From NCBI GenBank assembly GCA_002779075.1, contig PEXK01000048.1:1-7753 (forward strand): DNA of 7,753 nt. The letters run 5' to 3'. Below, piece after piece: positions 1 through 7,753 of this stretch. The DNA is from Candidatus Diapherotrites archaeon CG08_land_8_20_14_0_20_30_16 (GTDB taxonomy: Archaea > Iainarchaeota > Iainarchaeia > Iainarchaeales > 0-14-0-20-30-16). The notes beneath the pieces are model-generated. The model ran no database searches. It was not told the DNA's origin and saw only the letters and a list, made by a program, of their open reading frames with translations. Within the stretch, counting starts at the first letter, position 1; every line of letters begins with the position of its first letter. The position numbers were made by a program, and so were the translations under genes.

Positions 1-308
1 CCTGAAGATTCTAAAGAAGCATCTTTTGCTAGACTAGGATAATTATCATACAAATATTGGCCTGTAAAATCAATCTGAGTATTATCAGAAACAAACCAAG
101 GCAAAACAGAACTGCCTACAAGTTCATAACCACCAACTGACTCGACCTGATAATACAAAGCTGTTTCTTTTTCTATTTCTTCATTTTGCATTTCATAACT
201 AAATTTATTTACTGTGACGTTTGGAACGAATTGCATTTTAATATCATTCTTTGATCCCATTTCATTTTTTATAGTATCTGTTACACTCATATTTAATATT
301 GTCCCTCT
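1..308 (-). other. Start of a C-terminal module conserved between the two tandem paralogues (residues 2248-2349+)
   Basis: The giant ORF reads RGTILNMSV...QFVPNVTV...ALYYQVESVGGYELVGSSVLPWFVSDNTQIDFTGQYLYDNYPSLAKDASLESS. The neighbour reads RGTVLDAKL...GFIPDLAI...SLFYEIIYNGESQIAESSLLPWFVSKESYEKTDFTGQKLFDTYPKVAVQSLSEDN. Shared exact DNA words are ggcctgtaaaatca (59..72 and 7515..7528) and agaaacaaacca (87..98 and 7549..7560). Their spacing differs by 6 nt, which is an in-frame 2-codon indel. Confidence 0.8.
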
Positions 309-3300
309 TTCTGATTCTGAATTCATACTTTTGAAATCAATATCTTTGGAAACATTTAAATGCGCTTTAGGATTTGAAGTTGTGTTATAATTTGAAAGCA
401 TTTGATTATTCAAACTAGCTGAATTTATTGTAATTAAATCACTTGTTTCTGTAAAATCTGAACCATATCCTTGTCTGTCTATTGTTCCATTCTCAACACC
501 AACTCTTCCATCAATTGGCAGGTAATAAAATACAGAATCATTAGTTACTGAGGCAATCTTTTTCAAAACAACCATAACAAAAGCATTATTCAAATCAAAA
601 CTTAATTCAGGATAAACTATATTAAAATGAACTTCATAAAGTCCTGAACCATTGGTCTGTTGGTTCTTTGTATATCCGTTATATATTATTATTCTATTAT
701 TATCAAATAAATTATCCAAGAAAGTATCTTTGATTAACTGCCCAACATTATCTGCAAATTCCGTTTCCAAATATGTTTTCTTGAAATCTTTTAAAAAGTC
801 TTGAGAATAGCCATCGTCAGCTAAATATACTTTGTAATGCAATAAATCCTGTATTGCAAATATTTGATTTTTATTATTTTCATTTATGCTTGGCAAGAAA
901 GTAAACAAATTCATTTTACCATCTGATGAAACAAAAGTAGTTGGGGTTTTTGATAAACATTGGCTCTTTAACACTTTTGCAAATAAATTCAAATCAAAAT
1001 CCATTTTCGAAACTATTTTCTCGTTTCCTGATGCATCAAACAAAGTTACAGTAATATTCAAAGTGTTGTCATAAAGTTGATTATAGCCAGAATTCAAATC
1101 TTTGATATCTAAATCCTTAACTAAAGGTATTTCAACATTCAGATATACTAAATTCGTTCCAACATCAATAGGCACCCCCTCTGACCCATAGTTTACTTGT
1201 ACTTTTTTGCCTGAAGAATCTGTTGCATAAACTTTGTATTGTGGAATTGGTTGAGGAGGATTAGAGGAAGTTAAGAAAATACCTAAATTTTTATCTAAAG
1301 TAATAGTCCAATAACCATCCTTAATACCCACATCTATTTTATCAAAGAAATTTGTACTTAAACCAGGATCTTGAAAATAGTTAATTGTTGATTCTTTATC
1401 TACTTTTTTATAATCTGGAATCATCTGGCATTTTATTCCTGAAAACTCACCCAAAAGGCTTTGTGCAAACTTCAATCTTTTCAAACCAGAAATTAATAAC
1501 TGTGTTGAATCACAATATTGTTTCACATTCCCTTCTACATCAGGGCTACAAAAGTTTTCATCAATACTATCGTCCCATTTATATTGTAATTTTGGTTTTG
1601 CATCAGGACCAGTAAAACCAACAACATCACCAGAAACATTAGTACATGCTTGTCCCACTTTGAAAGAAACCTCTTTTTCTGTGATATTGTGGAAAGCAAC
1701 ACGAATATTTCCTAATAAATGACCATCACCCAATACTCCAGAATTTATATCAATAGGATATGTTTTATAACACCATTCGGAATTGCAAGGCTTGCCATTA
1801 TAAAAAGTATTCAAATCCAAATTTGTGAAGGTTGCTTTAAACATACCAGTACCAGGGTAACCGCCAATAATTTCACCTTGATTTGCTCTTCCCCAAAGCT
1901 CTGACTTTAACTTACATGGAACAACAACATAAGTATCCCATTTAATATTATTAAATGAGCCACCACCACATTTTGGATAAAAAGTAACTGTTTTACCACT
2001 ACTTACTGTCGGGTCTTTGTCCCACCAACAATCATCTTCAGACAGGGTCAATTTAGGATCTGACCACAATATATGTTCTGTATCAACAACATAATCTTGA
2101 GAGCAGGTTAAGCTAAATTTTATGCTATCATCCCAATGTTTTGAACCTGTACAAAACCAGCCCTTACAGCCAACATGCCCTTTTATAACTTCTCTAGCAA
2201 TCAAGAATTGATAATGATCTTGGCCAGTTATTTTAAAAATATCACTGTAATTCGCGGTTCCATCTTCCCTTATTTTTATTGTATTTGTAGTTACGTTAAC
2301 ATCAGGATAATTAAGATCATTTAAAATAACAAATTTGTATTCCTGGTCATCATTTAAGTAAGTAGTAAATGCTGCAATAAATATAGTTATTCCAACCAAA
2401 AGAACACCAGCACCAATTAACCAGCCAACAAGTCTTGTAACTACTGCACCAAGAATATCAGTAGAAGATCCATGTCTAACAAGATCATCCAAATCCCCTA
2501 AATATATTTGGGAGTTTTTATTTTTTATTTGCAAAAGATTAACAAAATTGTTCACATCTGCAATAAAAAGAGAGCTTGGAATATTTGTATTGTAAACTAA
2601 CAATGTGTCTGAAAACAGCTTATTATTTAACTCATTATTTGTTTGGACGTGTGTATCCAAAAAAGGATTTTCAGAAAAAAGACCATTACTGTACGATGTT
2701 TGAACATTAACAGGCAAAATCTTAATCCTCTTATAGGACAGGTCTTTTAGTTGTTTAGCAAATATTTCTAATGCGTAAGCACCTGATACTTGAGGTCTTG
2801 ATATTTCTAATTCATTTTCCTTAGATGATAAAACAAATCCCTTATATAGGCTTGCATTATCAAATTTAAAGCCAGTATATTCATTACCTACATTCTCACC
2901 ACAACCAATTGGTATCTCCTTGTCATTTGCTTTGCAAATCATTATGTCTAGAGTTATTCCTTCACAAATATTTTTGAAAGTTAATTTAAATTTATCTTGA
3001 GGCAAAGCATAAGTTAGTGAACTATCAGGAGTATACTGCCCTAAAGACAAGACTAAAGTCTCTGTTATTTCTTTTCCTTTATCATCAAATACTTTCAAAC
3101 AATCTTCCAAATGCAAAACACTTACATCAAACTTCAATTCTTTTGATTCTACTTTCTTCAAGCCATCAGAAGTATTTACAAATGCAAAAATCTTTGCTTT
3201 CAAATGTTCCCTTCCAAAAATTCCTTTTGGAACAAAAGAAACAGCCCCTAAAAAGGGATTGTCCAGGTCTGCTTTCCAGTTTACTGCAAATATCTCTGGT

Positions 3301-6300
3301 ACTGATAATTTTAAGTTTGTGGTACCAGTTGAAAGACTAAATGAAAAACTGCCAATACCTAAAGAACCTGAATCATGTAGCAAAACTAAATAAGCAGAAT
3401 CAAAAACAACAGGATAAGGTTCTGAATATCCTTTACTGCTTGATTGAACAACACAAGTATTCAAAACAGATAAAGGAATTGTAATAGGTTTTACATCTGT
3501 TGCAAAACTTGTACTTTCAGAACCTGTGTTTAATGCAATTTCTAAACAGCCATCATCAGCATTAGTAGGATATCCCTGTGATACTATATTAATTTCAAAA
3601 GGAATTAATCTATTTATTGTCTCATCTTGAGTTCTAAATGTTACTTTGACAGCTCCAGAAAATTTAATTCCTTTTCCAATCTCAGCACTAATGTTATCAT
3701 TCAAAACTGCTTTAAAGAAGTCTTCCAATTCTAATTTAGCAATACCCGGCAGAGCGCCAACAGAATCATAATTCAATTGTATTCCTTGGATTTCTTTGTT
3801 TACGTATGTATTTGATAGATATGCTTTCATTACATCAATATTCAAAAAATTCTGCAAATTTAATGAATAATTATCAACTTGTAAATCTACGCTTTCTATT
3901 TTCAGTGTGGATGCACTATTATTTGTAATTATTAAACTGTCATAACCTTCTTTGTCTGTTGGATAAATCAAATCAATACTTAACTTTTCTTTATCAAACC
4001 CCAATATTTTGGTTGTTACTTGCAAATCCGGAGTAAAATCTTTTTGAGAATAAGATTCATAACCTTCTTTCTCAACTAATATCTGTACCAAAGTCCCAGG
4101 CGGCAAAGATGGAAGTAAACAGTCTGCTTTTCCTTGCAAATCTGTTTTTATATTTCTACAATCCCCTAAAACAAAATATGTTGTATCTGTTGGTTTCTTT
4201 ATTTTAACAGTAACAAGAGCGTCTTTTACAAAAGAATTTGTATCATCACTTACTGAAATACTTAAATTCTGTTGAATCCCGGGTGCCAATATTTTCTCGG
4301 GGAATACAGTCAAATTCAATTTTTTTGTTGTTGTTGATTTAAACAAAACAGATAATGCAGACTTATTATTTATTACCATTTTTTTATCATTATCTAAAAC
4401 AACAAAATTCAAAAAAGACTCCCCTAAAATAACTGGTTGCAAGCCTAATTGTCCAGAAATATATCTGTTCTTTATGTAATCTTTTATTTGATAACCCTTT
4501 ACAAATACACCAAAACTTTCCACCAAAGATTCAGATTTATTATCTGTTGGGCCTTTCAAATTATAATTCAAAAGTCTAATAAAAGAATGACTAGAAACAT
4601 CATTTTCAACAAAGGAAAGGGTTTCTTTTTGAGATTGTGCATTGAATATCTGCAGTGTGCCATTTTTTATAGTATTATCAGGACCACTTAAATTATTTGT
4701 CAAATCAAATGCAAACTCGTATTTTGTGTTTGGAGAAACTAAAAATTGGTCTTTTCCTTGTGATTCTAAATACAAATTAGTACTTTTATTAAGAAGAGTA
4801 TATCTTGAACAAAAATCATTATCTGTGCAAACACCAGATGCTCCTGCTAAAAATTCTTTTATTTCTGATGCAACACTTATATCATCAATTAACAAATCCC
4901 AACTAATCTTCAAAGAATCAAGAATTTTTACTGAACCATCATTCTTTACTTTCACTTTATAATATACATTATAAACTCCTGGATTTGTTTCATTCCAAAA
5001 TGATGAAATTATTTTTGCTTTGCCTATGGTGTTTTGTTCCATTTTGGAATCCAAATATTTTAAATCATAATTTGCAGAAGTATATGCATCTATTAATGAA
5101 AGTTTTTCAGCATCCAAATTTTGGTCATCGCCAACATTTAATTTGAATTCAAAAGGTTTTGATTCATACATATAAATCTTGAAACCTAAATAATAAATCC
5201 CGCCAATATTCAAACTAGGTTCTTCTGCACCTTCGAAATCACTAAAAATACCCAAGAAATCTACTTTTGGTTCTGCTTGTGTTAAAGGAACCATTGAAAC
5301 AGTGCTTTGCCAATTATAATTAGTCATTAACAAACGGGACTCACTGTAATAAGGTAGATAATTATCTGCTTTAACAATATAGTATAAGGAGGTGCCGGCT
5401 TTGAAAGAATGGGTTGTTTCGCCAGATGCGCTCAAAATCTTGCTTCCAGATTCTGTTAATGGTTTTTTATAAAATGTAACTAAAGCATTACTTTTTGGAT
5501 TATTTGATTCATCTGTTACTTTCAATTTCAACATAGAATAGCCTACAGGTAAAACTATATTGACATCTAATTCAGGAATTTTATCTGATTCTGCACCACT
5601 TAAAACAACAGTATTACTATATGCTTCATTAAAACCATTATATACTCTAAATTGATAGCTTCCAATTTGTAAAAGTGATGTTGACAAACCATTTTTATCT
5701 GTTGCAGGAAAGTTATCCAAAGATAATAATTCAAACTGTGTTGCAGGATCAATAACAAATACTTTTGCACCTTCTATAGGTAGATTGTCTTCATCCAACA
5801 CTTTAACATTAACTTTGACACTGTTATACAAAGTCTTTGTTTTTAGTGTGAAGATTTTTTCATTAAAAGAAGAATTAATTTGAATTTCATTATTTGCTAA
5901 AGCAAAAACTGAGTTTGAATCTGGTTCAAAATCCAAAAAATAATTATCTAATTTTGATACAGGAATACTTATTGCTCCATTCGATGTTGTGCCTTTGAAA
6001 ACTATTTTGCCTGTATTGTCTTTTAGCACTGAGTTCCCATTTATGTGCACATTGTTTTCATCAACAAAAGACAGAGAAACTATTTTTGCAAAAGTGTTCT
6101 CCAATGTAAAAACAATATTATTTACTTTATTTTCACTTGTTTTTATTTGTTGTGATGTATCCAAATAATCTTCTTTGGAAGCATAAACAATATAATTCCC
6201 AACAGGAAGATTTGTAAATAATTTTGTATTTCCAAAATCATTAGTTGTATCTTTATCTATTTCTTCTTTTTGGTTTTGAGCATCAAAGATACTTACTTTA

Positions 6301-7049
6301 GCACCAGAAACTGGCATAGCATTTACATCATAAACAGTTACTTTTATACTTCCTGCTGGCAAAGATGTTTGATTTTCTAAAACCTGTGTAATTAACCCTA
6401 AAGTAACAACACAAGATGTTGAATCACATGTCTCGCCAGACAATACTTTGTACCCATCTATTTGAACACTTATTCCTAAAATACCACAATTTTCAGGAAC
6501 ATTTATTGTTGTTGAACCAGAAGAAACATTTCTTTCTTTTTGAGCATCACCCAATTCTGTTGAGTCACAATTAAAACTTATATGTGCTGTTTTTGTTATT
6601 GTAATTCCTGATTCATCAAACAAAAAGATTGTTGTTGGCAGCATTTTGTAAATTCTATTCAAAGAAACATTAATAGTATCTGAGAAATCATATTCTGATT
6701 TTGAAATTGCATATTTCTTTATTGATATTGATTCAAGCGAAAGTTTATCGCTAACAGGCAATTCTAAAATAGCTTTTCCTTTTATTGCTTTCCCATCAAA
6801 TGTATTTCCATTTACATTTACACTGAAATCAAAACTCTCCACTAATTGGATGTTGTCTGATTTGAAAATAAATGTAACTTGTTCCTTTGAAGGAATTAAC
6901 AACCAAACAACCAAGCCTATAATTAATAAAATAACAACACATAATACAATCTTCAAAACTAGGCTAGATTTGATCTTCTCAACAAAGGACTTAAAAAAAG
7001 TCTTTGTTTGCTCAAAACTGTAGCTTTGTTTGTTATCTTCTAAAGGCAT
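1..7049 (-). CDS. Giant membrane-anchored, repeat-containing surface/adhesin-like protein; at least 2349 aa, 3' end cut by the window edge; absent from the supplied ORF track
   Basis: Manual translation of the reverse complement from ATG 7049..7047 gives 2349 sense codons plus 2 leftover nt (7049 = 3 x 2349 + 2). No TAA, TAG or TGA occurs in frame. The nearest upstream in-frame stop is TAA at 7094..7092, with no canonical start between it and the ATG. Residue numbering was checked against TGG codons at 5310..5312 (W580), 3276..3278 (W1258) and 2133..2135 (W1639). In DNA this AT-rich, an open frame of this length cannot be chance. The translation begins MPLEDNKQSYSFEQTKTFFKSFVEKIKSSLVLKIVLCVVILLIIGLVVWLLIPSKEQ. 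The product name is inferred from architecture only. Confidence 0.9.
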   Translation of the reverse strand, partial: MPLEDNKQSYSFEQTKTFFKSFVEKIKSSLVLKIVLCVVILLIIGLVVWLLIPSKEQVTFIFKSDNIQLVESFDFSVNVNGNTFDGKAIKGKAILELPVSDKLSLESISIKKYAISKSEYDFSDTINVSLNRIYKMLPTTIFLFDESGITITKTAHISFNCDSTELGDAQKERNVSSGSTTINVPENCGILGISVQIDGYKVLSGETCDSTSCVVTLGLITQVLENQTSLPAGSIKVTVYDVNAMPVSGAKVSIFDAQNQKEEIDKDTTNDFGNTKLFTNLPVGNYIVYASKEDYLDTSQQIKTSENKVNNIVFTLENTFAKIVSLSFVDENNVHINGNSVLKDNTGKIVFKGTTSNGAISIPVSKLDNYFLDFEPDSNSVFALANNEIQINSSFNEKIFTLKTKTLYNSVKVNVKVLDEDNLPIEGAKVFVIDPATQFELLSLDNFPATDKNGLSTSLLQIGSYQFRVYNGFNEAYSNTVVLSGAESDKIPELDVNIVLPVGYSMLKLKVTDESNNPKSNALVTFYKKPLTESGSKILSASGETTHSFKAGTSLYYIVKADNYLPYYSESRLLMTNYNWQSTVSMVPLTQAEPKVDFLGIFSDFEGAEEPSLNIGGIYYLGFKIYMYESKPFEFKLNVGDDQNLDAEKLSLIDAYTSANYDLKYLDSKMEQNTIGKAKIISSFWNETNPGVYNVYYKVKVKNDGSVKILDSLKISWDLLIDDISVASEIKEFLAGASGVCTDNDFCSRYTLLNKSTNLYLESQGKDQFLVSPNTKYEFAFDLTNNLSGPDNTIKNGTLQIFNAQSQKETLSFVENDVSSHSFIRLLNYNLKGPTDNKSESLVESFGVFVKGYQIKDYIKNRYISGQLGLQPVILGESFLNFVVLDNDKKMVINNKSALSVLFKSTTTKKLNLTVFPEKILAPGIQQNLSISVSDDTNSFVKDALVTVKIKKPTDTTYFVLGDCRNIKTDLQGKADCLLPSLPPGTLVQILVEKEGYESYSQKDFTPDLQVTTKILGFDKEKLSIDLIYPTDKEGYDSLIITNNSASTLKIESVDLQVDNYSLNLQNFLNIDVMKAYLSNTYVNKEIQGIQLNYDSVGALPGIAKLELEDFFKAVLNDNISAEIGKGIKFSGAVKVTFRTQDETINRLIPFEINIVSQGYPTNADDGCLEIALNTGSESTSFATDVKPITIPLSVLNTCVVQSSSKGYSEPYPVVFDSAYLVLLHDSGSLGIGSFSFSLSTGTTNLKLSVPEIFAVNWKADLDNPFLGAVSFVPKGIFGREHLKAKIFAFVNTSDGLKKVESKELKFDVSVLHLEDCLKVFDDKGKEITETLVLSLGQYTPDSSLTYALPQDKFKLTFKNICEGITLDIMICKANDKEIPIGCGENVGNEYTGFKFDNASLYKGFVLSSKENELEISRPQVSGAYALEIFAKQLKDLSYKRIKILPVNVQTSYSNGLFSENPFLDTHVQTNNELNNKLFSDTLLVYNTNIPSSLFIADVNNFVNLLQIKNKNSQIYLGDLDDLVRHGSSTDILGAVVTRLVGWLIGAGVLLVGITIFIAAFTTYLNDDQEYKFVILNDLNYPDVNVTTNTIKIREDGTANYSDIFKITGQDHYQFLIAREVIKGHVGCKGWFCTGSKHWDDSIKFSLTCSQDYVVDTEHILWSDPKLTLSEDDCWWDKDPTVSSGKTVTFYPKCGGGSFNNIKWDTYVVVPCKLKSELWGRANQGEIIGGYPGTGMFKATFTNLDLNTFYNGKPCNSEWCYKTYPIDINSGVLGDGHLLGNIRVAFHNITEKEVSFKVGQACTNVSGDVVGFTGPDAKPKLQYKWDDSIDENFCSPDVEGNVKQYCDSTQLLISGLKRLKFAQSLLGEFSGIKCQMIPDYKKVDKESTINYFQDPGLSTNFFDKIDVGIKDGYWTITLDKNLGIFLTSSNPPQPIPQYKVYATDSSGKKVQVNYGSEGVPIDVGTNLVYLNVEIPLVKDLDIKDLNSGYNQLYDNTLNITVTLFDASGNEKIVSKMDFDLNLFAKVLKSQCLSKTPTTFVSSDGKMNLFTFLPSINENNKNQIFAIQDLLHYKVYLADDGYSQDFLKDFKKTYLETEFADNVGQLIKDTFLDNLFDNNRIIIYNGYTKNQQTNGSGLYEVHFNIVYPELSFDLNNAFVMVVLKKIASVTNDSVFYYLPIDGRVGVENGTIDRQGYGSDFTETSDLITINSASLNNQMLSNYNTTSNPKAHLNVSKDIDFKSMNSESERGTILNMSVTDTIKNEMGSKNDIKMQFVPNVTVNKFSYEMQNEEIEKETALYYQVESVGGYELVGSSVLPWFVSDNTQIDFTGQYLYDNYPSLAKDASLESS
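1428..2168 (-). other. Cys/Trp-rich module (residues 1628-1874) with a recurring K-x-W-D-[DT]...C motif; no family recognised
   Basis: There are 12 Cys (1628, 1633, 1649, 1674, 1694, 1712, 1755, 1760, 1802, 1834, 1846, 1874) and 9 Trp (1631-1825) in about 250 aa. The ~1490 aa between the two helices hold only 4 Trp. Motif copies are SKHWDDSIKFSLTC, NIKWDTYVVVPC and QYKWDDSIDENFC. Two C-x4-C pairs occur (CKGWFC, CNSEWC). Confidence 0.6.
2364..2432 (-). other. Internal hydrophobic, transmembrane-like helix (residues 1540-1562) splitting the giant protein into ~1490-aa and >785-aa parts
   Basis: The segment LVGWLIGAGVLLVGITIFIAAFT is 23 uncharged residues. It is flanked by ...DILGAVVTR on the N side and YLNDDQEYK on the C side. 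The Y1564 codon at 2358..2360 is in frame. Confidence 0.7.
4020..4319 (-). other. Fifth, isolated carboxypeptidase-regulatory-like / PEGA-like repeat (residues 911-1010)
   Basis: The segment reads LNLTVFPEKILAPGIQQNLSISVSDDTNSFVKDALVTVKIKKPTDTTYFVLGDCRNIKTDLQGKADCLLPSLPPGTLVQILVEKEGYESY. The ending V-E-K-E-G-Y-E resembles the PEGA signature. An inserted Cys pair is present (C964/C977). Confidence 0.5.
5283..6350 (-). other. Four consecutive carboxypeptidase-regulatory-like / PEGA-like beta-sandwich repeats (residues 234-317, 322-405, 411-500, 505-589)
   Basis: Units of about 85 aa recur with the family pattern: alternating hydrophobic strand, D-x-N-x-P-[VI]-x-G-A-x-V, T-[DN]-x-x-G, G-x-Y, then Y. 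Examples are SIKVTVYDVNAMPVSGAKVSIFD...GNYIVYASKEDY and VKVNVKVLDEDNLPIEGAKVFVID...TDKNGLSTSLLQIGSYQFRVY. Others are KLKVTDESNNPKSNALVTFY...YYIVKADNYLPY and VSLSFVDENNVHINGNSVLKDNTGKIVFKGTTSNGAISIP. The nt boundaries are 6099..6350, 5835..6086, 5550..5819 and 5283..5537. Assignment is by eye, not by HMM. Confidence 0.6.
6894..6962 (-). other. N-terminal transmembrane signal-anchor helix (residues ~30-52) of the giant protein
   Basis: The segment LVLKIVLCVVILLIIGLVVWLLI is 23 mostly hydrophobic residues with one Lys near its N-terminal end. It follows a Lys-rich 29-aa tail (KTFFKSFVEKIKSS) and is followed by PSKEQ. No obvious AxA signal-peptidase site was seen. Confidence 0.75.
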
Positions 7050-7060
7050 AATACCACGAG

Positions 7061-7080
7061 TGTTCTTTCCTGTTCTTTCC
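7061..7080. repeat. Perfect 2 x 10-bp tandem direct repeat (tgttctttcc tgttctttcc; minus strand GGAAAGAACA x2) 12 nt upstream of the giant ORF start
   Basis: Read directly from the sequence. Positions 7061..7070 and 7071..7080 are identical. The repeat lies between the TATA-like element (7081..7088) and the ATG at 7049. Confidence 0.9.
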
Positions 7081-7110
7081 TTTATAAATATTTAATAGTC
7101 TTTTATATAT
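7081..7110 (-). promoter_or_regulatory. Candidate promoter for the giant ORF: palindromic TATA-like octamer tttataaa (7081..7088) plus a second AT-rich box (minus strand ATATATAAAA, 7110..7101)
   Basis: The minus strand reads ...ATATATAAAAGACTATTAAATATTTATAAAGGAAAGAACAGGAAAGAACACTCGTGGTATTATG. TTTATAAA resembles the archaeal TATA consensus (TTTAWATA-like). It is centred about 35 nt before the ATG, which would imply a leader of only ~8-10 nt. No convincing bacterial -35 (TTGACA-like) sits 17 bp upstream of a -10. No strong GGAGG lies 5-10 nt before the ATG. The call is speculative without transcript data. Confidence 0.3.
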
Positions 7111-7132
7111 TTAACTATTATTACACTAAACA

Positions 7133-7146
7133 GCATAATTTTATGC
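7133..7146 (-). terminator. Small perfect palindrome gcataattttatgc downstream of the upstream gene's stop; weak hairpin-terminator candidate
   Basis: The GCATAA/TTATGC arms are separated by 2 nt, giving in practice a ~5-bp stem with a 4-nt loop. The palindrome begins 34 nt after the TAG at 7182..7180. On the minus strand it is followed by TGTTTAG, which is only a short T run. The stem is AT-rich and short, so predicted stability is low. Confidence 0.2.
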
Positions 7147-7179
7147 GTTGGAAGTCACTTTTTGGGGTTATGTACACTA

Positions 7180-7753
7180 CTAATGAGGTTCATTAACAAA
7201 TACTCTTGTGCTTAACTCGTTTCCTGAAATACAAAGCAAATTAGAATCTATACCCTCTAAGACACTATTGAGATTTTCTATACCAAACTCTTTAGTATTA
7301 TTTATCTTTATGTTTGGATTTTCTAAATTAACTGTCTTTACATCTTCTATTAGAACAGAAGCATTGCTTGGAGCATAAATATAAGAATAAATGTTATAAT
7401 CTGCTAAATCTGTTACAGCTTCTTTAGTGTATTCTATTTTTGATGCTTTATTTGACACATTATCTTCAGATAATGATTGAACTGCAACTTTAGGATAGGT
7501 ATCAAAGAGTTTCTGGCCTGTAAAATCAGTTTTTTCATAGCTTTCTTTAGAAACAAACCAGGGTAAAAGGGAGCTTTCTGCAATCTGTGATTCTCCATTA
7601 TATATTATTTCATAGAAAAGACTTACAGGAGAATCTATTTGCTTGTTTTTCATTTTTGCTTCTGCTTTCCAAATTGCTAAATCAGGGATAAACCCAATAG
7701 AAATGATATTAGTGGGTGCTTTAGACAATTTAGCATCTAAAACAGTGCCTCTT
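7180..7753 (-). CDS. C-terminal 190 codons plus stop of an upstream paralogue of the giant protein; 5' end cut by the window edge
   Basis: This is track ORF 7180..7728, but position 7728 is a TTG. The frame stays open upstream to the edge (RGTVLDAK precedes it), so the listed start is an artefact. The stop is TAG at 7182..7180. The product aligns with the giant ORF tail: RGT[IV]L, then LPWFVS, DFTGQ-L-D-YP. Confidence 0.85.
   Translation of the reverse strand, partial: RGTVLDAKLSKAPTNIISIGFIPDLAIWKAEAKMKNKQIDSPVSLFYEIIYNGESQIAESSLLPWFVSKESYEKTDFTGQKLFDTYPKVAVQSLSEDNVSNKASKIEYTKEAVTDLADYNIYSYIYAPSNASVLIEDVKTVNLENPNIKINNTKEFGIENLNSVLEGIDSNLLCISGNELSTRVFVNEPH

What the first reader, a model, noticed from the sequence alone, without database searches (positions are those of the whole stretch)
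7180..7753. Head-to-tail giant paralogues sharing a C-terminal module
The last 190 codons of the upstream gene align with the end of the giant ORF (1..308). Shared elements are RGT[IV]L, an F[VI]P motif, L[YF]Y, LPWFVS and DFTGQxLxDxYP. By my count, identity is about 17 of 36 from LPWFVS onward. Exact 14-mer and 12-mer DNA matches are offset by an in-frame 6-nt indel. Two same-strand genes 130 bp apart with a conserved C-terminus imply a tandemly duplicated family. The conserved tail could be an anchoring, assembly or secretion-recognition module beneath variable outer regions. If the upstream gene is also giant, this is part of a multi-gene array.
Basis: partly seen in the sequence, partly recalled or inferred. 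Interest (0 to 1): 0.7.

Follow-up and report, generated by a model that had tools for sequence, protein, structure and literature searches.

The report
Tandem giant surface-protein paralogues, DPANN archaeon
The two neighbouring genes are real tandem duplicates of a roughly 2,440-residue membrane-anchored surface protein in a tiny groundwater archaeon, alike along their whole length and not only at the tail, and they belong to a row of at least three giant genes of unknown, probably adhesive, function.

Summary
On the minus strand, the 190-codon upstream fragment (7752..7183) matches the end of the giant ORF (7049..3) with BLASTP E=2e-16 and a Smith-Waterman z of 15.7.

The window is a whole 7,753-bp contig of a Candidatus Diapherotrites (Iainarchaeia, DPANN) MAG. 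A 19-kb contig from another assembly (L020) is 99.87% identical and extends it on both sides. There the upstream gene is itself a giant of at least 2,260 aa.

- **Whole-length homology:** it is 44% identical to the window's giant (2,443 aa when complete) over about 2,300 aligned positions.
- **Sister genes:** the two are sister sequences in a tree (97% bootstrap).
- **Third giant:** a different type of giant gene (at least 1,605 aa) starts 18 nt downstream.

So "tandem duplicates in a multi-gene array" is confirmed. "Conserved C-terminal module under variable outer regions" is not. The tail (35% identity) is among the least conserved parts; the middle is 51-54% identical. It carries no anchor or sorting signal.

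The tail is the last beta-rich domain of an extracellular C-terminal arm. It has no Pfam, PDB or viral fold match, and only 18 relatives among 1.84 billion cluster representatives. Function is inferred (adhesion or cell contact) and untested.

The parts
7183..7752 (-). The last 190 codons of the upstream giant paralogue 'Y' (NCBI PIU22097.1, COT14_02975, partial). Its stop codon is at 7180-7182. This stretch is the C-terminal 'tail' domain.
   Evidence: It is an open frame cut by the window edge. It is identical to the last 190 aa of the gene of at least 2,260 aa at L020:2-6784. The tail HMM matches it at E=5e-63.
7050..7179 (-). The 130-nt intergenic spacer. It holds an AT-rich TATA-like element (ATTTATAAAG, 7080-7089, about 36 nt before the ATG) and a 10-nt unit, AGGAAAGAAC, repeated twice in tandem (7062-7081).
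   Evidence: Read directly from the sequence. The same 130-nt gap is present in L020. That this is a promoter is inference only.
3..7049 (-). The giant gene 'G1c' (PIU22096.1, COT14_02970, partial). The window holds 2,349 of its 2,443 codons; the last 94 codons and the stop lie beyond window position 1.
   Evidence: The full gene is at L020:6915-14246.
6894..6962 (-). The N-terminal hydrophobic anchor of the giant, residues about 30-52.
   Evidence: Hydropathy scan. All full-length homologues have the same feature.
6099..6350 (-). A CarboxypepD_reg / Ig-like beta-sandwich domain (residues 234-317). This is the only Pfam family above its cut-off.
   Evidence: PF13620 at 64.8 bits against a cut-off of 32.3, in 2 stretches.
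2352..2456 (-). The mid-protein hydrophobic segment (residues 1532-1566). In homologues it is a 50-70 aa two-helix hairpin. It separates the N-terminal arm from the C-terminal arm.
   Evidence: In lineages where the gene is split, the break falls here and the C-arm protein has its own signal peptide.
3..2351 (-). The C-terminal arm (residues 1567-2349 in the window), rich in cysteines. The tail unit occupies 3-542, and the part that aligns with the upstream ORF is 3-308.
1504..1621 (-). A stretch that is 117/118 nt identical to a variant of the third paralogue (L013, G1a type), against a 73% background. It is also 90% identical to paralogue Y. It is probably a gene-conversion tract in the most conserved motif (GFTGxxAKPK...YCDSTQ).

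Best explanation
The window is the junction between two full-length tandem paralogues of a giant (about 2,440 aa) membrane-anchored surface protein. The host is a Candidatus Diapherotrites / Iainarchaeia (DPANN) archaeon.

**Shown**
- The upstream gene (Y) and the window's giant (G1c) are homologous from about residue 170 to the C-terminus.
- They are each other's closest relatives among the 11 family sequences compared.
- An 18-nt gap separates G1c from a third giant of a different but related type (G2).
- The same MAG has a further G1 copy (G1a = P0007) in a second array.
- In related genomes the usual order is one G1, then G2, then often G3. The Y-G1c pair is therefore an extra tandem duplication.

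**Inferred**
- Each G1 protein is held in the membrane by an N-terminal helix and a mid-protein hydrophobic hairpin.
- It displays two extracellular arms built of beta-sandwich domains. Both arms have even numbers of conserved cysteines.
- The shared 'tail' is simply the last domain (about 200-270 aa, beta-rich with one helix, an invariant Cys and a DFTG motif) at the free end of the C-terminal arm.
- Because this distal end is the most diverged part between paralogues, the likeliest role is a tip or binding domain. The paralogues would then give the cell several binding specificities for adhesion or cell-cell contact.
- The repertoire is probably reshuffled by gene conversion and deletions.
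For: **Source.** P0003, which is 100% identical to the upstream ORF, sits on a contig of 7,753 bp. The NCBI names are COT14_02975 and COT14_02970.

**Extension.** L020 matches the window at 99.871% over 7,753 nt. It carries Y at 2-6784 (at least 2,260 aa), a 130-nt gap, G1c at 6915-14246 (2,443 aa), an 18-nt gap, and G2c at 14265-19079 (at least 1,605 aa).

**Identities.**
- Y against G1c: 44.2% over 2,309 columns.
- Y against G1a: 46.2% over 2,306 columns.
- G2c against the G2 genes of other arrays: 30-38%.
- By region: 41-54% over residues 171-1900 (21% in the short hydrophobic stretch 1531-1570), 32% over 1901-2180, and 35% in the tail.

**Tree.** In an NJ tree on 2,263 columns, Y and G1c pair at 97%. 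G1a groups with orthologues from other genomes at 99%.

**Usual arrays.** A single tail-bearing giant of 2,413-2,482 aa is followed by a giant of 2,150-2,251 aa in L001, L003, L004, L017 and a JGI contig. L008 and L014 show the same order.

**Family size.** The tail profile found only 18 cluster representatives among 1.84 billion. All the complete ones are 2,417-2,472 aa, with the tail at the very end.

**Topology.**
- In split lineages the C-arm protein starts with a signal peptide or a lipobox-like ASAGC. The preceding piece ends in a transmembrane helix followed by basic residues.
- Each arm of P0001 has 14 cysteines.

**Tail model.** pLDDT is 80-97 over residues 60-270.

**Exchange between paralogues.** A 117/118-nt tract is shared with the G1a variant in L013.
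Against: - No function has been tested, and no homologue has been characterised.
- Fold searches of both models found nothing significant. The best results were E=0.13 (PDB) and E=0.0068 (BFVD) for the tail, and E=0.0023 (PDB) for the C-arm, all with low TM-scores. 'Adhesin' therefore rests on architecture alone.
- In the window's own giant the mid-protein hydrophobic stretch is only about 35 aa. A two-helix hairpin, and hence an outward-facing C-arm, is less certain for this copy than for its homologues.
- N-glycosylation sequons are not enriched over shuffles.
- Y's first ~170 residues have not been seen in any contig.
- The low conservation of the tail could reflect relaxed constraint instead of diversifying selection.
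Confidence: 0.85

Rival explanations
1. The upstream ORF is a short standalone gene that shares only the C-terminal module with the giant. It would be a secreted protein of about 800-960 aa consisting of the C-arm alone.
For: Such short tail-bearing genes do exist in this family, each with its own signal peptide: L003 (843 aa), L021 (802 aa), L012 (911), L015 (965) and L016 (899). In L011 and L016 a tail-bearing ORF cut by the contig end sits directly upstream of another giant gene; in L007 one lies about 2 kb upstream.
Against: In L020, which is 99.87% identical to the window, the upstream gene is at least 2,260 aa and aligns with the giant from residue 171 onward. The upstream tail is 44-46% identical to tails of the giant type but only 15-21% identical to the short type.
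Confidence: 0.03
2. The shared tail is an anchoring, sorting or secretion-recognition signal, comparable to PGF-CTERM/archaeosortase tags or bacterial T9SS C-terminal domains. It would be conserved for that reason under variable ectodomains.
For: The tail is always at the extreme C-terminus and ends in a conserved motif, (K)LC(I/V)x4-8(V/F)(F/W)(V/W)N(E). A similar last ~40 residues closes the otherwise different G2 and G3 giants (HMM E=1.3e-5; hhalign E=0.003 but probability only 10%).
Against: The tail has no hydrophobic helix or basic end after the motif and no Pfam or NCBIfam sorting-signal hit. The unit is a folded domain of 200-270 aa, not a short tag. It is less conserved than the rest of the protein, not more. 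The protein already has transmembrane anchors.
Confidence: 0.08
3. The tail is an oligomerisation or assembly domain, for example a trimerising jelly-roll like TNF/C1q heads on phage fibres. It would bundle several giant chains, possibly from different paralogues, into one fibre.
For: The weak, non-significant top fold matches are dominated by TNF, C1q, 4-1BBL, capsid jelly-rolls and phage collagen/C1q tail-fibre tips. The domain sits at the end of a long arm. Several paralogues carrying the same end domain are encoded side by side.
Against: All these matches have E>0.006, TM-scores of 0.33 or less, and rmsd mostly 15-25 A. No multimer modelling was possible. Tail identity of 35% between neighbouring genes does not suggest a shared interface.
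Confidence: 0.12
4. The apparent duplication is an assembly artefact, with collapsed or chimeric contigs from a mixed population.
For: There are signs of chimerism or variation around this locus. P0004 joins an ORF6N gene to the last 106 aa of the upstream gene. L013 carries a 118-nt patch that matches the window's giant.
Against: The two copies are only 35-46% identical at protein level, so they cannot be collapsed repeats. Two independent assemblies (the NCBI MAG contig and ENA k141_398680) give the same junction with the same 130-nt spacer.
Confidence: 0.02

Closest known systems
Giant1-5 surface proteins of Apilactobacillus kunkeei (five consecutive genes of 3,000-8,000 aa; PMC12863079)
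   Same: Both are head-to-tail arrays of paralogous giant extracellular proteins in a small genome. In both, the paralogues share a C-terminal beta-sheet domain and the presumed role is cell-surface interaction.
   Different: The A. kunkeei proteins are bacterial and have a Sec signal peptide and no transmembrane helices. Their C-terminus is DUF5776/SH3b-like and is thought to bind the cell wall. The paper reports no recent gene conversion. Here the proteins are archaeal, with transmembrane anchors, no DUF5776 or SH3b hit, homology along the whole length, and a probable conversion tract.
Large surface proteins of DPANN archaea and CPR bacteria, such as the SPEARE proteins of Nanohaloarchaeota (from my own knowledge: Hamm et al. 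2019)
   Same: These are very large membrane or surface proteins in ultra-small, probably host-dependent archaea, and are proposed to mediate host contact.
   Different: SPEARE proteins are defined by serine-protease, adhesion and restriction-endonuclease domains. No such domain was detected here; only CarboxypepD_reg/Ig-like domains were found. No sequence relationship was found.
CarboxypepD_reg (PF13620) / Big_1 beta-sandwich repeat adhesin-like proteins
   Same: The N-terminal arm has two PF13620 stretches above the cut-off. The AF2 model of the C-arm is a string of beta-sandwiches, and its only fold matches are generic Ig-like domains.
   Different: These domains cover under 10% of the protein. 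The tail and most of the C-arm match no family.
PGF-CTERM / archaeosortase-dependent archaeal surface proteins (from my own knowledge)
   Same: Both are archaeal surface proteins with a conserved extreme C-terminus.
   Different: PGF-CTERM is a short PGF motif followed by a transmembrane helix and basic residues. This tail is a folded domain of about 200 aa with no hydrophobic end.

Membership tests
Iainarchaeia 'G1' giant surface-protein family (unnamed; defined here by P0001, P0002, P0007, P0008, P0009, P0012, P0020, P0021) | A C-terminal tail unit (FYYxPxDG...RQGYG...RGTxL...DFTG...KLCIS...VFVNE) at the extreme C-terminus | tested here: met
   The tail HMM (built from A2) matches the upstream ORF at E=5e-63 and the window's giant at E=7e-66. 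In the search of 1.84 billion representatives, both are among only 18 hits.
Iainarchaeia 'G1' giant surface-protein family | Homology along the full length of about 2,400-2,530 aa | tested here: met
   The window's giant aligns with P0002 at 36% over 2,467 columns. Upstream gene Y (from L020) aligns with G1c at 44% over 2,309 columns and with G1a at 46% over 2,306. Y's first ~170 residues were not available.
Iainarchaeia 'G1' giant surface-protein family | An N-terminal transmembrane helix plus a mid-protein hydrophobic hairpin near residue 1,550 | tested here: met
   The giant has hydrophobic segments at 22-58 and 1532-1566. Y has a 42-aa hydrophobic stretch at the equivalent place, Y residues 1372-1413. 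Y's N-terminus is not available.
Iainarchaeia 'G1' giant surface-protein family | Being the first gene of a same-strand G1-G2(-G3) array, with an opposite-strand gene of about 330 aa upstream | tested here: not met
   G1c is followed by G2c after 18 nt, as in the usual arrays. However, its upstream neighbour is another G1 (Y), not the ~330-aa gene. This shows an extra tandem duplication and does not count against membership.
PGF-CTERM / archaeosortase sorting signal | A C-terminal PGF-like motif followed by a transmembrane helix and a basic tail | tested here: not met
   The C-termini read ...RVFVNEPH* and ...KVFVNELANQT*. There is no hydrophobic segment after residue 1566 and no NCBIfam hit.
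T9SS-type C-terminal sorting domain | A match to the Por_Secre_tail / T9SS CTD profiles | tested here: not met
   The tail has no Pfam or NCBIfam hit at E<=0.1-1. No type IX secretion system is known in archaea (from my own knowledge).
TNF / C1q-like trimeric jelly-roll | Significant structural similarity to the TNF/C1q fold | tested here: not met
SPEARE proteins of Nanohaloarchaeota | Serine protease, adhesion and restriction-endonuclease domains in one giant protein | tested here: not met
   Pfam scans of G1c, Y and G2c found only CarboxypepD_reg, Big_1 and PEGA-type beta-sandwich hits.
A. kunkeei Giant1-5 type | C-terminal DUF5776 / SH3b-like domains, a Sec signal peptide and no transmembrane helix | tested here: not met
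   There is no DUF5776 hit, and transmembrane segments are present. The family definition is taken from PMC12863079.

The most novel reading that the evidence does not exclude
These genes may encode a previously undescribed class of archaeal 'two-armed' surface proteins. Each would be anchored by an N-terminal helix and a central hairpin, with a fold-novel tip domain on the C-terminal arm that sets partner or host specificity in a DPANN symbiont. The tandem and dispersed paralogues would act as a variable repertoire. This MAG and its near-identical contigs carry at least three G1 genes, two G2 genes and a short C-arm-only protein. The repertoire would be reshuffled by gene conversion, by fusion and splitting of the gene at the hairpin, and by deletions. 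That would make it a surface-variation system in ultra-small archaea.
Probability: 0.25. Interest if true: 0.65.

Novelty: new member of a known kind. Interest (0 to 1): 0.42.

Why it matters
DPANN archaea have tiny genomes and are thought to depend on contact with other cells, but the molecules that make that contact are mostly unknown. This organism spends a large share of its coding capacity on one uncharacterised family. One 19-kb contig holds nothing but three giant genes, and a second array lies on another contig of the same assembly. The family has a defined architecture, a tail domain with no known structural relative, and signs of exchange between copies. That makes it a concrete candidate for the surface or attachment apparatus of Iainarchaeia. 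The tail profile built here also gives a handle for finding more members. As a piece of genome biology, however, tandem paralogous giant surface proteins are a familiar pattern.

Tried and rejected
- **Collection scans with the 3-sequence tail alignment:** scans of metagenome contigs and genome contigs found nothing. The 16-sequence alignment was too divergent to give search patterns. A 7-sequence alignment then worked.
- **Viral origin:** an exact 51-mer from the window was absent from viral contigs.
- **Exact-protein look-ups:** these failed for P0001, P0004 and P0007. The decisive contigs came later through cluster members P0029 and P0026.
- **Are the G2/G3 C-termini the same domain?** Only the last ~40-45 residues match (HMM E=1.3e-5; hhalign E=0.003, probability 10%). 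I treat this as a lead, not a result.
- **Do L021's last gene and L020's first gene overlap?** They do not. L021's gene is G2 type and L020's is G1 type.
- **Promoter comparison:** aligning the regions upstream of G1 genes showed only AT-richness.
- **N-glycosylation sequons:** no excess over shuffles.
rejected, because at 35-46% protein identity the synonymous sites are saturated.
- **The conserved ~330-aa upstream neighbour in the usual arrays:** only weak metallo-beta-lactamase-fold hits, with no evident link.

Full report
**1. What is in the window**

All long open frames are on the minus strand. One frame is open from 7091 to position 3 (2,363 codons). Another is open from 7752 to 7183 (190 codons) and ends at a stop at 7182-7180.

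The giant starts at ATG 7049 (MPLEDNKQ...). The window's left edge cuts it off. The window's right edge cuts off the 5' part of the upstream ORF. The spacer between them is 130 nt (7050-7179).

G+C content is about 30% throughout.

**2.

- BLASTP of the 190-aa fragment against the giant gives 33/96 identities, 65.9 bits and E=2e-16 (fragment 1-90 against giant 2248-2341).
- The Smith-Waterman score is 159, against 49.1 +/- 7.0 (maximum 74) for 300 shuffles, so z=15.7.
- The exact DNA matches are a 15-mer and a 12-mer whose offsets differ by 6 nt.
Within the window only the first half can align, because the giant's last 94 codons lie outside it.
- A nearly identical full-length protein (P0001, 2,443 aa) shows that the similarity runs to both C-termini. 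It is 34% over 194 columns, E=4e-34, ending in ...LCISxNxLxxxVFVNE.

**3. Where the window comes from**

The upstream fragment is 100% identical to PIU22097.1 (COT14_02975, partial), which lies on a contig of exactly 7,753 bp. The giant is PIU22096.1 (COT14_02970, partial). Both are annotated as hypothetical proteins of a 'Candidatus Diapherotrites archaeon CG08_land_8_20_14_0_20' MAG.

The window is therefore the whole contig and cannot be extended in that assembly. All related loci found in GTDB genomes are Diapherotrites, Iainarchaeum or unnamed archaeal MAGs.

**4. The decisive extension**

The cluster of P0001 contains a member, P0029, on a 19,079-bp ENA contig, fetched as L020. The window matches L020:13963-6211 at 99.871%, with 10 mismatches and no gaps.

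L020 carries three genes on one strand and nothing else:

| Gene | L020 coordinates | Length | Note |
|---|---|---|---|
| Y | 2-6784 | at least 2,260 aa | 5' end cut by the contig |
| (gap) | | 130 nt | |
| G1c | 6915-14246 | 2,443 aa | complete |
| (gap) | | 18 nt | |
| G2c | 14265-19079 | at least 1,605 aa | 3' end cut by the contig |

Y's last 190 residues are identical to the window's upstream ORF.

**5. The two genes are full-length paralogues, not genes sharing a module**

Y aligns with G1c over 2,309 columns at 44.2% identity (G1c residues 171-2438). It aligns with a third copy, G1a, at 46.2%.

Identity of Y against G1c by region:

| G1c residues | Identity |
|---|---|
| 171-520 | 41% |
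| 521-900 | 51% |
| 901-1200 | 54% |
| 1201-1530 | 51% |
| 1531-1570 (hydrophobic stretch) | 21% |
| 1571-1900 | 52% |
| 1901-2180 | 32% |
| 2181-2247 | 48% |
| 2248-2443 (tail) | 35% |

The same profile appears between P0001 and five other family members. The tail and the region just before it are thus the least conserved long stretches. This is the opposite of 'a conserved tail beneath variable outer regions'.

**6. Tandem duplication and the wider array**

G1a is P0007 (PIU22524.1, COT14_00730, 2,453 aa), from the same MAG.

An NJ tree of 11 G1 proteins (2,263 columns, 100 bootstraps) pairs Y with G1c at 97%. It places G1a with orthologues from other genomes (P0020, P0021) at 99%. Y and G1c are therefore tandem duplicates of each other, though not recent ones.

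In the other genomes, a single tail-bearing G1 of 2,413-2,533 aa heads a same-strand array:
- G1 is followed 7-97 nt later by a G2 giant of 2,150-2,260 aa, and often by a G3.
- In most of these genomes, an opposite-strand gene of about 330 aa lies upstream.
- This holds for L001, L003, L004, L008, L014, L017, a JGI contig and L021.

G2 and G3 share only the N-terminal 450-1,100 residues with G1, at 22-26% identity. G2c is 38% identical to the G2 of array A and 30% identical to that of L001.

The second array in this organism is on L021, from the same ENA sample. It reads G1a, then a 220-aa ORF6N gene, then a G2 of at least 2,216 aa.

**7. What the tail is**

A profile of three tails was searched against 1.84 billion cluster representatives. 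It found 18 proteins. All the complete ones are 2,417-2,472 aa with the tail at the very end. The rest are fragments or more distant relatives that keep RGxxL, (C)xDFTG and (V/I)C(V/I)...(F/Y)WN.

- **Profile and sequence searches:** Pfam and NCBIfam find nothing in the tail, and a PDB sequence search with the tail profile finds only chance hits.
- **Tail model:** AlphaFold2 on the 16-sequence alignment gives a confident beta-rich domain with one helix. pLDDT is 80-97 over residues 60-270.
- **Tail fold searches:** Foldseek finds no significant match in PDB or BFVD. The weak top hits are jelly-roll-like (TNF, C1q, capsids).
- **C-arm model:** an 877-residue model of the whole C-terminal arm (pLDDT 67) is a chain of beta-sandwiches. 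It has only generic Ig-like matches.

**8. Topology (inference)**

- Every G1 has an N-terminal hydrophobic helix and a hydrophobic stretch near residue 1,550. That stretch is 50-70 aa, enough for two helices, in most members. It is only about 35 aa in the window's giant.
- In several lineages the gene is split exactly at this stretch (L003, L012, L015, L016, and the 802-aa protein of L021).
  - The C-arm protein then begins with its own signal peptide. In L012 and L016 that peptide has a lipobox-like ASAGC.
  - The preceding piece ends in a transmembrane helix followed by basic residues.
- Both arms of P0001 carry 14 cysteines. P0002 has 14 and 12.
- Together these points argue that both arms are outside the cell and that the tail is the free end of the C-terminal arm. 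It is not an anchor, since nothing after residue 1566 is hydrophobic.

I therefore read the tail as a distal tip domain. Its low conservation between paralogues fits a specificity-determining role, but relaxed constraint cannot be excluded.

**9. Signs that the paralogues interact genetically**

- L013 is a JGI contig 99.1% identical to L021. It carries a 118-nt stretch that is 117/118 identical to window 1621-1504, against a 73% background. The MAG's own G1a (P0007) differs there. Y is 90% identical over the same 151 nt. This looks like gene conversion.
- P0004, a 279-aa JGI protein, joins the first ~177 residues of the ORF6N protein to the last 106 residues of Y. The join falls at an 11-of-12-nt microhomology, TTTGATGCCTAT / TTTGATACCTAT. 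It is either a large deletion variant or a chimeric assembly.
- All 10 nucleotide differences between the window and L020 lie in G1c and are non-synonymous, changing 8 codons. I estimate the chance probability at roughly 0.1, assuming about three quarters of random changes are non-synonymous, so this is only a hint.

**10. Comparison with known systems**

The closest analogue in kind is the five-gene Giant1-5 array of Apilactobacillus kunkeei. Those paralogous giants share a C-terminal beta-sheet region thought to bind the cell wall (PMC12863079). The domains, anchoring and phylogenetic domain all differ here.

No defining feature of the following families is met: PGF-CTERM, T9SS C-terminal domains, TNF/C1q or SPEARE proteins (see the membership table). 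Two literature searches found no description of this family.

**11. Verdict**

The evolutionary part of the interpretation (tandem paralogues, a giant upstream gene, a multi-gene array) is confirmed with independent sequence. The functional part (a conserved anchoring or secretion module under variable ectodomains) is not supported.

This is an uncharacterised, rare, lineage-restricted member of a familiar kind: tandem giant surface proteins. A few features are worth a specialist's attention. These are the two-arm topology, the fused and split gene forms, a tip domain with no structural relative, and exchange between copies.

Noticed in passing
window 7183-7500 (-); L013:2962-3630; L021:17440-18102: A JGI protein (P0004, 279 aa, on a 7,651-bp contig) is an in-frame fusion. 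It joins the first ~177 aa of an ORF6N-domain protein to the last 106 aa of the window's upstream gene, at the microhomology TTTGATGCCTAT / TTTGATACCTAT. The intact ORF6N gene sits between G1a and G2a in the other array. This is either a deletion variant spanning more than 10 kb or a chimeric assembly.
   Followed up: partly
window 1504-1621 (-) against L013:1059-1176 and L020:4959-5109: A 118-nt stretch is 117/118 identical between the window's giant and a population variant of paralogue G1a, against a 73% background. The MAG's own G1a (P0007) lacks the patch. Paralogue Y is 90% identical over 151 nt at the same place. This is probably gene conversion in the GFTGxxAKPK...YCDSTQ motif.
   Followed up: partly
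window 133, 182, 945-946, 1165, 2653, 5992, 6124-6125, 6850: All 10 nucleotide differences between the window and the 99.87%-identical contig L020 are non-synonymous, changing 8 codons of the giant. There are none in the upstream gene or the spacer. The sample is too small to be significant, but it hints at diversifying or relaxed selection.
   Followed up: partly
window 7062-7081 (-) and 7080-7089 (-): The 10-nt unit AGGAAAGAAC occurs twice in tandem between a TATA-like ATTTATAAAG and the giant's ATG. It may be a leader or ribosome-binding feature. Conservation elsewhere was not checked.
   Followed up: no
L003:3610-6141, L012:8315-11047, L015:8042-10936, L016:7739-10435, L021:78-2486: In related lineages the C-terminal arm with its tail is a separate protein of 800-965 aa with its own signal peptide (lipobox-like ASAGC in L012 and L016). 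In L012 and L016 the N-terminal arm is itself split into pieces of about 1,550-1,600 aa and about 570 aa. The family therefore exists in both fused and split gene forms, broken at the mid-protein hydrophobic hairpin.
   Followed up: partly
L001:13293-19745, L004:17408-24091, L007:10839-18263, L017:10501-17256 (C-termini): The G2 and G3 giants end in ...HIFYYMPYD...NICYxxxxxYYYYNxxKLL. This resembles the G1 tail's FYYxPxDG...KLCIS...VFVNE. The statistical support is weak (HMM E=1.3e-5 over 45 residues; hhalign E=0.003, probability 10%).
   Followed up: partly
L021:2552-3939, 6462-6680 and 7526-7968; L001:4497-4939: HicA/HicB toxin-antitoxin genes and, in L021, an AbiEii-like gene lie just upstream of the giant-gene arrays. 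A conserved opposite-strand gene of about 330 aa (weak metallo-beta-lactamase-fold hits) lies close upstream of G1 in most genomes, immediately adjacent or with one small gene between.
   Followed up: no
window 2352-2456 (-): The mid-protein hydrophobic stretch of the window's giant is only about 35 aa, against 50-70 aa in homologues. The first helix of the presumed hairpin looks degenerate, which leaves this copy's topology uncertain.
   Followed up: no
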